From the NCBI RefSeq assembly GCF_041248615.1, contig NZ_CP158426.1: 64,000 bases of DNA; one strand, given 5' to 3'. This DNA is from Escherichia coli (GTDB lineage: Bacteria > Pseudomonadota > Gammaproteobacteria > Enterobacterales > Enterobacteriaceae). Position numbers: made by a program. Positions 57,001-60,000 of this stretch are shown piece by piece (position 1 is the first letter of the stretch; every line of letters begins with the position of its first letter).

Positions 57001-60000
57001 ATTGGCAATAACATTGATATGCTGATTCCGCGGGATTTGCGTCCCGCGCATCCTGAATACATCCGTCACAACCGTGAAGGCGGTAAAGCGCGCGTCGAGG
57101 GGATGAGTCGGGAGCTGCAGCTGGAGAAAAAAGACGGCAGTAAAATCTGGACCCGTTTTGCGCTATCGAAAGTGAGCGCCGAGGGGAAAGTTTATTACCT
57201 GGCGCTGGTACGGGATGCCAGCGTAGAAATGGCGCAAAAAGAACAGACCCGACAATTGATTATTGCCGTTGACCATCTCGACCGACCAGTGATTGTCCTC
57301 GATCCGGAACGCCATATTGTGCAGTGCAATCGTGCATTTACCGAAATGTTTGGTTACTGCATTAGCGAAGCCAGCGGTATGCAGCCCGATACACTCCTGA
57401 ACATTCCAGAATTCCCTGCTGATAACCGCATTCGTTTACAACAGTTGCTATGGAAAACCGCCCGCGATCAGGACGAATTTCTGCTGTTGACGCGCACCGG
57501 TGAAAAAATCTGGATTAAAGCCTCTATCAGCCCGGTCTATGATGTGCTCGCGCATCTGCAGAACCTGGTAATGACTTTCTCGGATATCACCGAAGAACGG
57601 CAAATCCGCCAGCTTGAAGGCAATATTCTCGCCGCCATGTGCAGCAGCCCGCCATTTCATGAAATGGGGGAAATTATTTGTCGTAACATCGAATCTGTAC
57701 TCAACGAATCGCATGTTTCGCTGTTCGCGCTGCGCAACGGGATGCCGATACACTGGGCGTCATCTTCGCACGGTGCAGAAGTTCAAAATGCGCAAAGCTG
57801 GTCAGCGACCATTCGTCAGCGTGATGGTGCGCCTGCGGGGATCCTGCAAATTAAAACCTCGTCAGGAGCAGAAACCAGCGCCTTTATCGAACGCGTGGCA
57901 GATATCAGCCAGCATATGGCCGCGCTGGCGCTGGAACAGGAAAAAAGCCGTCAGCATATTGAACAACTCATCCAATTTGATCCGATGACCGGTCTGCCAA
58001 ATCGCAATAACCTGCACAATTACCTCGATGACCTGGTCGACAAAGCCGTCTCTCCGGTGGTCTATCTCATCGGTGTTGACCATATTCAGGATGTGATTGA
58101 TAGCCTTGGCTATGCGTGGGCCGATCAGGCATTGCTGGAAGTGGTCAATCGCTTTCGTGAAAAACTCAAACCGGATCAGTATCTCTGTCGTATCGAAGGT
58201 ACGCAGTTTGTCCTCGTGAGCCTCGAAAACGACGTCAGTAACATTACCCAGATCGCCGATGAGCTACGGAATGTGGTCAGCAAGCCGATAATGATTGACG
58301 ATAAACCATTCCCGCTCACCTTGAGCATTGGCATCAGCTACGACGTGGGTAAAAACCGCGATTACCTGCTCTCCACTGCTCACAATGCAATGGATTATAT
58401 TCGCAAGAATGGCGGTAACGGCTGGCAGTTCTTCAGCCCGGCGATGAACGAAATGGTAAAAGAGCGTTTGGTTTTAGGCGCAGCGCTGAAAGAAGCGATT
58501 AGCAATAACCAACTAAAACTGGTTTACCAGCCGCAAATCTTCGCAGAAACGGGTGAACTCTACGGCATCGAAGCCCTTGCTCGCTGGCACGATCCCCTGC
58601 ATGGTCATGTGCCCCCTTCACGGTTTATTCCTCTCGCAGAAGAGATTGGTGAAATCGAAAATATTGGGCGCTGGGTCATCGCGGAAGCTTGCCGTCAGTT
58701 AGCAGAATGGCGTAGCCAGAATATTCATATCCCGGCGTTATCCGTTAACTTGTCGGCGTTGCACTTTCGCAGTAATCAGCTGCCTAATCAGGTGTCTGAT
58801 GCAATGCACGCCTGGGGTATTGACGGCCACCAGCTGACGGTGGAAATCACGGAAAGCATGATGATGGAACACGATACCGAAATCTTTAAGCGCATTCAGA
58901 TCCTGCGCGATATGGGCGTGGGTTTATCGGTAGATGATTTTGGCACGGGCTTTTCCGGATTATCCCGCTTAGTCAGTCTTCCAGTAACGGAAATCAAAAT
59001 TGACAAAAGTTTTGTCGATCGTTGCCTGACCGAAAAACGCATCCTTGCCTTACTTGAAGCCATTACCAGCATTGGGCAAAGCCTCAATTTAACCGTCGTG
59101 GCGGAAGGCGTCGAAACCAAAGAGCAATTTGAGATGCTACGCAAGATCCACTGTCGCGTTATTCAGGGATATTTCTTTTCCCGCCCCCTGCCCGCCGAAG
59201 AAATTCCAGGCTGGATGAGCAGTGTGTTACCGCTGAAAATCTGACAAATTCCTCTCGCCCGCACTCGCGGGTTTTCATTTAACGTGACACTGTCACTTAA
59301 ATACTGTGATTTCAGCTACGATTCCGGGAGATTCCTTCCTTAACTTCCCCTCTTGCACCAAAACTGCACTACGCTGCACAAATGTTGATCAAAAGTTAAA
59401 AAATATAACTTTAAGCCAGCATTCTGGCGCTTATCCCGGCATGGCATGAGATCTGCATAAGCGGAAAGCGCAGCAATTTTTGTCTTATACAGGAACCGTT
59501 TATGTCGGATACCACCGAACTGGTTGATTTAGCCGTGATCTTCCCTGATCTGGAGATCGAATTGAAATACGCCTGCGCTGATAACATCACAGGTAAAGCT
59601 ATTTATCAGCAAGCGCGTTGTCTGTTACACAAGGATGCGATTACTGCGCTGGCGAAAAGTATCAGTATCGCCCAGCTGTCAGGCTTACAACTGGTGATTT
59701 ACGATGCGTATCGCCCACAACAAGCACAGGCGATGTTGTGGCAAACCTGCCCAGACCCGCAATATGTTGTTGATGTGACGGTCGGTTCTAATCACAGCCG
59801 TGGCACGGCGATCGACCTGACGCTTCGTGATGAGCACGGGAACATCCTGGATATGGGTGCAGAGTTCGATGAAATGCACGAACGTTCCCATGCATATCAC
59901 CCTTCCGTTCCACCCGCCGCTCAGCGCAATCGGCTGTTGCTGAATGCGATTATGACTGGCGGTGGCTTTGTCGGTATCCCGAGCGAATGGTGGCACTTCG

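What the first reader, a model, noticed from the sequence alone, without database searches (positions are those of the whole stretch)
59354..59457. Candidate sigma54 promoter with three helically phased TGCAC repeats upstream of the ddp operon
TGGCATGagatCTGCA (59442-59457) fits the -24/-12 sigma54 consensus with correct GG/GC spacing. Upstream, TGCAC occurs three times at 10-11-bp intervals (59354, 59365, 59375), the first as TGCACCA resembling an NtrC half-site. This fits nitrogen-limitation control of the D-Ala-D-Ala dipeptidase/dipeptide transporter operon, which I recall being in the Ntr regulon.
Basis: partly seen in the sequence, partly recalled or inferred. Interest (0 to 1): 0.35.

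Follow-up and report, generated by a model that had tools for sequence, protein, structure and literature searches.

The report
Known NtrC/sigma-54 promoter of ddpX

Summary
TGGCATGAGATCTGCA (59442-59457) and three TGCAC at 59354, 59365 and 59375 are present. The window is identical to E. coli K-12 across the dosP-ddpX intergenic region.

The same 17-mer is a published sigma-54 ChIP-seq site, with a predicted start at window 59468, 34 nt before ddpX. NtrC ChIP-seq, gel shifts with NtrC and sigma-54 holoenzyme, and about 100-fold nitrogen-depletion induction are also published.

My addition is comparative. Across 34 non-Escherichia species, window 59353-59391 is 92% conserved while its flanks are 36-45%. 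It is the only stretch of the Citrobacter promoter region that BLAST finds in E. coli.

The block reads best as overlapping weak NtrC-type 17-bp sites centred near -106 and -85. Each has a strong left half and a degenerate right half, like the weak glnAp2 sites. The middle TGCAC is TGAAC in most relatives.

The distance from this block to the promoter changes in steps of about 11 bp (88, 99, 110).

In other genera the promoter drives an RpiR-family regulator gene lying ahead of ddpX. No complete E. coli genome has that gene.

Verdict: real, correctly read, already known, low interest.

The parts
59254..59278 (+). Intrinsic terminator of dosCP (stem GCCCGC/GCGGGT followed by a T-run). It separates the ddp promoter region from upstream transcription.
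   Evidence: Terminator-like site found by the scan; dosP ends at 59244.
59353..59391 (+). Conserved upstream activating block, TTGCACCAAAACTGCACTACGCTGCACAAATGTTGATCA. Proposed NtrC enhancer.
   Evidence: Mean identity to E. coli in 34 non-Escherichia species is 0.92, against 0.36 and 0.45 for the flanks. It is the only part of the 1121-bp Citrobacter region that blastn finds in E. coli (47 bp, 93.6%, 4228 genomes).
59354..59370 (.). Candidate NtrC dyad A, TGCACCA-AAA-CTGCACT, centred at -106. Left half 7/7, right half 2/7. Contains TGCAC repeats 1 and 2.
   Evidence: Scored against TGCACCAnnnTGGTGCA (9/14). The consensus is quoted in PMC8743547. The left half is invariant across genera.
59365..59381 (.). 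Overlapping candidate dyad M, TGCACTA-CGC-TGCACAA, centred at -95. Its TGCAC (repeat 2) is TGAAC in most Citrobacter and Enterobacter.
   Evidence: 9/14; alignments.
59375..59391 (.). Candidate NtrC dyad B, TGCACAA-ATG-TTGATCA, centred at -85. Left half 6/7, right half 4/7. It is the best dyad match in the intergenic region.
   Evidence: 10/14. In the aligned block the same site reads TGCACAAATGTTGTGCG in Huaxiibacter and TGCACAAATGTTGTTCA in Enterobacter cloacae. Dyads at the equivalent upstream position in more distant genera are closer to the consensus, for example TGCCCAAATGTTGTGCA in Serratia and TGCACCTTCTTTGTGCA in Raoultella.
59385..59415 (.). AT-rich spacer (85% A+T over 59385-59404) with an A6 tract and the conserved GTTAA at 59394-59398. 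Presumed flexible or bent DNA between enhancer and promoter.
   Evidence: Composition; GTTAA conservation; imperfect inverted repeat I1. No match of at least 8/9 to the IHF core WATCAANNNNTTR.
59441..59457 (+). Sigma-54 promoter ATGGCATGAGATCTGCA (-24 GG at 59443-44, -12 GC at 59455-56).
   Evidence: Identical to ChIP-seq site OS16 (PMC4591121) and to the earlier prediction in PMC2831329. TGGCA and TGCA are conserved in about 70 Enterobacterales loci.
59468..59468 (+). Predicted transcription start, giving a 34-nt leader.
   Evidence: Motif centre 59449 plus 19 bp, the rule of PMC4591121, which lists a distance of 34 for ddpX. I found no direct start-site mapping.
59458..59501 (+). Leader with Shine-Dalgarno AGGA (59489-59492). 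Its 3' part looks like the remnant of the end of an RpiR-family gene present in other genera.
   Evidence: TATACAGGAACCGT matches the Citrobacter stop codon and ribosome site TAAACAGGAACCGT (1 of 300 shuffles reach the score). CAGCAA..TTTTTGTC parallels CAGCAACAATTTGGTC.
59502..60083 (+). ddpX, D-alanyl-D-alanine dipeptidase, first gene of the operon. It is followed by ddpA (60097-61647), ddpB (61649-62671) and ddpC (62668-63567).
   Evidence: NCBIfam NF007557, 331 bits against a cut-off of 176.

Best explanation
This is ddpXp, the NtrC-activated, sigma-54-dependent promoter of the E. coli ddpXABCDF operon.

Shown by published data. Sigma-54 holoenzyme occupies the -24/-12 element at 59441-57. 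NtrC is cross-linked to this region in nitrogen-starved cells. NtrC and the holoenzyme bind a probe covering 59171-59580. ddpX mRNA rises about 100-fold on nitrogen depletion.

Inferred from sequence and conservation. Phosphorylated NtrC binds the 38-bp conserved block 59353-59391. The block holds two or three overlapping low-affinity dyads centred near -106, (-95) and -85, all on one helical face. NtrC oligomerises there, reaches the closed complex across the short AT-rich spacer, and uses ATP to open the promoter. Transcription would then start near 59468.

Inferred from the resemblance to weak glnAp2 sites. Because the sites are weak, the operon should fire only at high NtrC-phosphate, that is, under severe nitrogen starvation.
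For: Identity of the locus: the window is identical to K-12 across the intergenic region and the genes are annotated dosP, ddpX and ddpA.

Sigma-54: ChIP-seq peak centre 1561149 (U00096.2), which is window 59453, with motif ATGGCATGAGATCTGCA and PSSM score 10.5 (PMC4591121).

NtrC: ChIP-seq peak with 24-fold enrichment at ddpXABCDF, which is window 59421-59501 (PMC4066584). NtrC binary, holoenzyme binary and ternary complexes form on the probe. Induction is 104.5-fold for ddpX and 2.2-fold for ddpF (PMC8743547).

ddpXp has been used as a named NtrC/sigma-54 promoter part (PMC7045595).

Enhancer assignment:
- The block is 0.92 conserved against flanks of 0.36 and 0.45.
- It is the only BLAST-detectable similarity to Citrobacter.
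- 55 of 71 Enterobacterales promoters have a dyad of at least 10/14 located 30-150 bp upstream of the -24 element, against 2.8% of shuffles.
- As a scoring control, the same method recovers glnAp2 sites at -140 and -108 (13/14, 12/14) and weak sites at -89 and -68 (9/14, with one strong half), the same pattern as at ddpX.
- The distance from block to promoter clusters at 87-89, 97-100 and 109-112 bp.
Against: No footprint or mutagenesis places NtrC on 59353-59391.

The dyads match the consensus poorly (9-10 of 14). A 9/14 match is expected about 0.6 times per 300 bp by chance.

The ChIP-seq interval called for NtrC (59421-59501) lies over the promoter, not over the block. The same offset is seen for glnK and glnH in that table, so the resolution is too coarse to decide.

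ddpX does not appear in the main-text mentions I retrieved as a target of NtrC-alone gSELEX, and I did not read the full NtrC target tables.

All 38 positions are conserved, including non-consensus ones. That is more than simple NtrC dyads require and may mean another factor shares the block.

I found no direct start-site mapping.
Confidence: 0.85

Rival explanations
1. The sigma-54 promoter and its NtrC dependence are real, but NtrC binds elsewhere in the intergenic region, for example the palindromic GCCAGCATTCTGGCGCT centred at -45. On this view the TGCAC block serves a different protein.
For: The block's dyads score only 9-10 of 14, and the -45 candidate also scores 9/14. The NtrC ChIP interval (59421-59501) lies over the promoter-proximal region. 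Conservation of all 38 positions exceeds what degenerate NtrC dyads need.
Against: The -45 sequence is not conserved outside Escherichia; the spacer is 0.45 conserved. The block has a perfect TGCACCA half-site. In distant genera, near-consensus NtrC dyads (11-12 of 14) sit at the equivalent position. The weak glnAp2 sites show the same pattern of one strong and one weak half.
Confidence: 0.1
2. The conserved block is the operator of the RpiR-family regulator encoded just downstream of the promoter in other Enterobacterales, and it persists in E. coli only as a relic.
For: In Citrobacter, Enterobacter, Serratia and others the promoter drives a 288-aa HTH_6 (RpiR family) gene directly ahead of ddpX. 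Autoregulatory operators often sit near such promoters.
Against: None of the 5426 complete E. coli genomes has that gene, yet the block is kept at 93.6% identity to Citrobacter while all surrounding DNA has diverged beyond blastn detection. This argues for selection in E. coli without the regulator. A position about 60-110 bp upstream of a sigma-54 promoter, with spacing that changes by whole helical turns, is typical of enhancers rather than repressor operators.
Confidence: 0.05
3. ddpX expression is driven mainly by an RpoS or sigma-70 route, either a second promoter or read-through from dosCP, and the sigma-54 site is a poised, largely silent binding site.
For: ddpXA is 39- and 31-fold RpoS-dependent in O157:H7 EDL933 (PMC2907692). 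ddpX is lower in a cya mutant (PMC4512719). [quoted passage not shown]
Against: No sigma-70-type promoter is found in 59150-59560. A terminator follows dosP. [quoted passage not shown] The two routes are not exclusive.
Confidence: 0.05

Closest known systems
ddpXp of E. coli K-12 as recorded in EcoCyc/RegulonDB and mapped by sigma-54 ChIP-seq (site OS16)
   Same: It is the same DNA, base for base, with the same predicted start and the same NtrC dependence.
   Different: Nothing differs for the promoter. In the literature I could search, the NtrC sites are not given at sequence level: there were no hits for the block sequences.
glnAp2 (glnALG) NtrC enhancer and sigma-54 promoter
   Same: A -24/-12 promoter with NtrC dyads upstream on one helical face. 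Its weak sites at -89 and -68 have one strong half-site and score 9/14, like ddpX sites A and B.
   Different: glnAp2 also has two high-affinity dyads at -140 and -108 (13/14, 12/14). ddpX has none above 10/14, and its sites are closer to the promoter (-106 to -85).
glnHp2 and glnK promoters (NtrC-dependent, overlapping or weak sites near -90 to -135)
   Same: Overlapping or closely packed dyads about 85-135 bp upstream. The best proximal glnK site is 10/14 at -87.
   Different: glnHp2 has 12-13 of 14 dyads and, from memory, uses IHF. I found no canonical IHF core at ddpX.
The orthologous promoters of the RpiR-family-gene/ddpX/ddpABCDF operons in Citrobacter, Enterobacter, Serratia, Raoultella and Pantoea
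   Same: The sigma-54 element is homologous (TGGCACGCGTCCTGCA and variants). The upstream block is homologous in Citrobacter and Enterobacter, and NtrC-type dyads occupy the equivalent position in more distant genera.
   Different: There the first transcribed gene is a 288-aa RpiR-family regulator. In Escherichia the promoter abuts ddpX, and the enhancer-promoter distance is one helical turn shorter (88 against 99 bp).

Membership tests
Sigma-54 (RpoN)-dependent promoter | A -24 GG and a -12 GC with the fixed spacing of TGGCAC-N5-TTGCW | tested here: met
   TGGCATGAGATCTGCA at 59442-57 matches 9 of 11 specified positions, with GG and GC correctly spaced.
Sigma-54 (RpoN)-dependent promoter | Occupancy by sigma-54 holoenzyme | not testable with these tools
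   Published: ChIP-seq site OS16, FAT score 10 (PMC4591121); gSELEX peak and gel shift with RpoN holoenzyme (PMC8743547).
Sigma-54 (RpoN)-dependent promoter | Transcription depends on rpoN and starts about 12 nt downstream of the GC | not testable with these tools
   The RT-qPCR study assayed an rpoN-defective mutant and concluded that the operon is activated when RpoN and NtrC are both present. The start is predicted only, at 59468. I found no direct mapping.
Sigma-54 (RpoN)-dependent promoter | Conservation of the -24/-12 element at orthologous promoters | tested here: met
   TGGCA and TGCA are kept in about 70 Enterobacterales loci at the operon start. The 17-mer is 0.74 conserved against 0.28-0.45 for its surroundings.
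NtrC (GlnG) enhancer / Ntr regulon promoter | 17-bp dyads resembling TGCACCAnnnTGGTGCA about 60-150 bp upstream | tested here: inconclusive
   Three overlapping candidates score 9, 9 and 10 of 14, with strong left and weak right halves. This is within the range of the weak glnAp2 and glnK sites, but close to chance level by consensus score alone.
NtrC (GlnG) enhancer / Ntr regulon promoter | Evolutionary conservation of the candidate sites, with equivalent dyads in relatives | tested here: met
   Block 0.92 against flanks 0.36 and 0.45. Of 71 promoters, 55 have a dyad of at least 10/14, against 2.8% of shuffles. Dyads of 11-12 of 14 occur in Serratia, Raoultella and Pantoea.
NtrC (GlnG) enhancer / Ntr regulon promoter | NtrC binding in vivo and in vitro, and ntrC-dependent induction by nitrogen limitation | not testable with these tools
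   Published: ChIP-seq 24-fold, gel shift, and 104.5-fold induction in a study that included an ntrC-defective mutant. The binding has not been localised to specific bases.
NtrC (GlnG) enhancer / Ntr regulon promoter | Face-of-helix relation between enhancer and promoter | tested here: met
   Sites A and B are 21 bp apart. The distance from block to the -24 element clusters at 87-89, 97-100 and 109-112 bp across genera. These represent few independent events, so the support is suggestive.
IHF-assisted sigma-54 promoter | An IHF core WATCAANNNNTTR between enhancer and promoter | tested here: not met
   No match of at least 8/9 anywhere in 59245-59501 on either strand. Only an AT-rich, A-tract spacer is present.

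The most novel reading that the evidence does not exclude
Two points go beyond what I found in the literature.

(a) The NtrC enhancer of the ddp operon is a 38-bp block that is essentially invariant across Escherichia, Citrobacter and Enterobacter. It is built from same-face TGCAC half-sites with deliberately poor partner halves. Its distance to the sigma-54 promoter has changed only in whole helical turns (88, 99, 110 bp).

(b) The Escherichia lineage lost an ancestral RpiR-family regulator gene that lay between this promoter and ddpX. That fused the Ntr promoter directly to ddpX and left the operon without its local regulator.
Probability: 0.6. Interest if true: 0.3.

Novelty: already known. 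Interest (0 to 1): 0.12.

Why it matters
For the finding as stated, very little is at stake. It recovers a textbook-class Ntr promoter that is in the databases and has been confirmed by ChIP-seq, gel shift and expression work.

The comparative additions have modest value:
- They give a base-level, testable proposal for where NtrC binds at ddpXp.
- They offer a natural series of whole-turn changes in enhancer-promoter spacing.
- They give an example of regulatory simplification by loss of a local regulator gene in Escherichia.

Tried and rejected
- Zimmer et al. 2000 (PMC18977) and Reitzer and Schneider 2001 (PMC99035), the likely sources of any published NtrC-site prediction for ddp, are not held.
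- Full-text searches for the block sequences found nothing.
- The supplement of PMC8743547 gave only the probe primers and the RpoN motif table, not an NtrC motif instance for ddpX.
- I looked for an IHF core in the spacer and found none at 8/9 or better.
- I looked for a sigma-70-type promoter to explain the RpoS dependence and found none.
- Rfam gave no match over 58800-60200 at E up to 1.
- I first tried footprinting immediately upstream of ddpX in other genera. This failed because ddpX is not the first gene there. Re-anchoring on the sigma-54 motif upstream of the RpiR-family gene solved it.
- A possible 5' remnant of the lost gene (AAGCGGAAAGCGC, resembling the S-E-K-R codons) is not significant: 27-62 of 300 shuffles reach its score. 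I do not rely on it.
- The NtrC ChIP interval cannot discriminate between block and promoter.

Full report
**What is there**

The window around the finding is E. coli DNA. The gene order is dosP (annotated 56845-59244), a 257-bp intergenic region, ddpX (59502-60083), ddpA (60097-61647), ddpB and ddpC. The intergenic region is identical to K-12 MG1655. Window position p corresponds to NC_000913.3 coordinate 1622578 - p; for U00096.2, subtract a further 1976.

- TGGCATGAGATCTGCA lies at 59442-59457, with GG and GC spaced as in TGGCAC-N5-TTGCW.
- TGCAC lies at 59354, 59365 and 59375.

The relaxed sigma-54 pattern is unique in the window but is not statistically rare (0.61 expected). The triple TGCAC arrangement is rare (0.01 expected).

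**What is already known**

The same 17-mer, ATGGCATGAGATCTGCA, is sigma-54 ChIP-seq site OS16 of Bonocora et al. 2015. Its peak centre is 1561149 and its motif centre 1561153 on the minus strand. The sequence had been predicted earlier from rpoN expression arrays (PMC2831329).

Brown et al. 2014 list a 24-fold NtrC ChIP-seq peak at ddpXABCDF in nitrogen-starved cells. They cite Zimmer et al. 2000 for NtrC-dependent expression (PMC4066584).

Shimada et al. 2021 give several results (PMC8743547):
- an RpoN-holoenzyme gSELEX peak at 1,561,132;
- NtrC, holoenzyme and ternary complexes on a probe whose primers map to window 59171-59580;

ddpXp has also been used as a named NtrC/sigma-54 promoter part (PMC7045595).

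So the promoter and its place in the Ntr regulon are established. I found no direct start-site mapping and no sequence-level NtrC site for this promoter in the searchable literature. The two papers most likely to contain one are not held.

**What the TGCAC repeats are**

I fetched 80 loci encoding DdpX relatives from species-representative genomes. Only two other Escherichia lineages share the dosP-ddpX arrangement.

In Citrobacter, Enterobacter, Serratia, Raoultella, Pantoea, Brenneria and others, ddpX-ddpA-ddpB is preceded on the same strand by a 288-aa gene ending 14 bp before ddpX. That gene has an RpiR-type HTH_6 domain. Its best NCBIfam match is SapR, at 374 bits, below the 500-bit cut-off.

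A sigma-54 element (TGGCACGCGTCCTGCA and variants) lies about 60 bp upstream of that gene in about 70 loci. Anchoring on this element aligns the E. coli promoter region with the others.

Conservation to E. coli across 34 non-Escherichia species:

| Segment | Window coordinates | Mean identity |
|---|---|---|
| Upstream flank | 59272-59352 | 0.36 |
| Upstream block | 59353-59391 | 0.92 |
| Spacer | 59392-59440 | 0.45 |
| Sigma-54 17-mer | 59441-59457 | 0.74 |
| Leader | 59458-59501 | 0.28 |

As an independent check, I ran blastn of the 1121-bp Citrobacter youngae region against 5426 complete E. coli genomes. It finds only a 47-bp stretch, which is this block, at 93.6% identity in 4228 genomes.

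Within the block, repeats 1 and 3 are invariant. Repeat 2 is TGAAC in most Citrobacter and Enterobacter.

I scored the region against the NtrC consensus TGCACCAnnnTGGTGCA, as quoted in PMC8743547. The candidates are:

| Candidate | Window coordinates | Score | Half-sites (left/right) | Centre |
|---|---|---|---|---|
| A | 59354-70 | 9/14 | 7/2 | -106 |
| M | 59365-81 | 9/14 | 6/3 | -95 |
| B | 59375-91 | 10/14 | 6/4 | -85 |

As a control, the same scoring recovers the glnAp2 sites at -140 and -108 (13/14 and 12/14). It also finds weaker sites at -89 and -68 (9/14, one strong half each), and a 10/14 site at -87 for glnK. The ddpX candidates therefore look like low-affinity NtrC sites.

In the aligned block, site B has a better right half in some genera (TGCACAAATGTTGTGCG in Huaxiibacter). 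In more distant genera, near-consensus dyads occupy the equivalent upstream position: TGCCCAAATGTTGTGCA in Serratia, TGCACCTTCTTTGTGCA in Raoultella and TGCACTAGTGTGATGCA in Pantoea.

Overall, 55 of 71 promoters have a dyad of at least 10/14 within 30-150 bp upstream of the -24 element. Only 2.8% of shuffled controls do.

The distance from the start of site A to the -24 T falls into three classes:
- 87-89 bp (Escherichia and one other locus);
- 97-100 bp (Citrobacter and Enterobacter);
- 109-112 bp (Mixta, Brenneria, Lonsdalea, Huaxiibacter and two Franconibacter-like loci).

These are whole helical turns. They represent few independent events, so I treat this as suggestive support for a face-of-helix constraint.

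**Mechanism**

Shown by published data: sigma-54 holoenzyme sits at 59441-57; NtrC associates with the region; and induction by nitrogen starvation is about 100-fold.

Inferred here: NtrC-phosphate binds the 59353-59391 block, oligomerises, and contacts the closed complex across the spacer. The spacer is short and AT-rich: 85% A+T over 59385-59404, with an A6 tract. It has no canonical IHF core. Transcription would start near 59468, giving a 34-nt leader with AGGA at 59489-92. Weak sites predict activation only at high NtrC-phosphate.

The physiological logic follows from established knowledge of the pathway rather than from a test here: the transporter imports D-Ala-D-Ala and DdpX cleaves it to D-alanine, a usable nitrogen source.

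**Rivals**

I considered three alternatives:
- NtrC binds elsewhere, for example the palindrome at -45.
- The block is a relic operator of the lost RpiR-family regulator.
- Expression is mainly through RpoS or read-through from dosCP.

The first two are disfavoured by conservation of the block in E. coli without the regulator and by near-consensus NtrC dyads at the equivalent position in distant genera. The third is not exclusive. ddpXA is strongly RpoS-dependent in EDL933, no sigma-70-type promoter was found, and a terminator follows dosP.

**Evolutionary note**

No complete E. coli genome carries the RpiR-family gene. The E. coli leader retains a probable remnant of that gene's 3' end and ribosome site. 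TATACAGGAACCGT matches TAAACAGGAACCGT, with 1 of 300 shuffles reaching the score, and CAGCAA..TTTTTGTC parallels CAGCAACAATTTGGTC. Loss of the gene by deletion in the Escherichia lineage is the simplest reading, but it is an inference.

**Verdict**

The feature is already known, so interest is low. The base-level enhancer proposal, the whole-turn spacing series and the regulator-gene loss are small additions that remain to be tested experimentally.

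Noticed in passing
L003:1620-2486 and the equivalent position in about 70 loci; window 59458-59501: In other Enterobacterales a 288-aa RpiR-family (HTH_6, SapR-like) regulator gene lies between the sigma-54 promoter and ddpX. No complete E. coli genome has it. The E. coli leader seems to keep the last few codons and the ribosome site of that gene.
   Followed up: partly
window 59279-59301: A 23-bp near-perfect palindrome, TTAACGTGACA-C-TGTCACTTAAA, lies just after the dosP terminator, about 170-190 bp upstream of the ddpX start. It is kept in the two other Escherichia lineages and absent from other genera. 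I identified no binding protein.
   Followed up: no
window 59304-59319: TGTGA (59304-08) and ACG (59317-19) are conserved across 37 species upstream of the enhancer block. ddpX is reported lower in a cya mutant (PMC4512719). This could be a CRP half-site; it is untested.
   Followed up: no
window about 59321 onward; L086: About 1176 of 5391 E. coli genomes match only the dosP end of the query; homology stops near 59320-59323. In an APEC O1:K1:H7 strain dosP is followed directly by osmC, so the whole ddp operon with its enhancer and promoter is absent.
   Followed up: partly
window 60097-61647 (ddpA) compared with L001-L035: The binding protein DdpA is far more divergent than its neighbours. 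It is 49-54% identical between E. coli and Citrobacter and 76-80% against other Escherichia lineages. DdpB is 94-98% and DdpX 78-94% over the same comparisons. This suggests allelic replacement or changed substrate specificity.
   Followed up: no
window 59387-59390 and 59450-59453: GATC (Dam methylation) sites lie inside the right half of candidate NtrC site B (TTGATCA, part of the palindrome TTGATCAA) and inside the sigma-54 spacer (GAGATCT).
   Followed up: no
window 59331-59353: A pyrimidine-rich tract, TTCCTTCCTTAACTTCCCCTCTT, lies directly upstream of the enhancer. It contains TTCCT, which is complementary to the ddpX ribosome-site sequence AGGAA. It would be transcribed only by read-through from dosP.
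   Followed up: no
window 59150-59560: ddpXA is reported 39- and 31-fold RpoS-dependent in O157:H7 EDL933 (PMC2907692), yet no sigma-70-type promoter was found here. Read-through past the dosP terminator from the dosCP operon is an untested explanation.
   Followed up: partly
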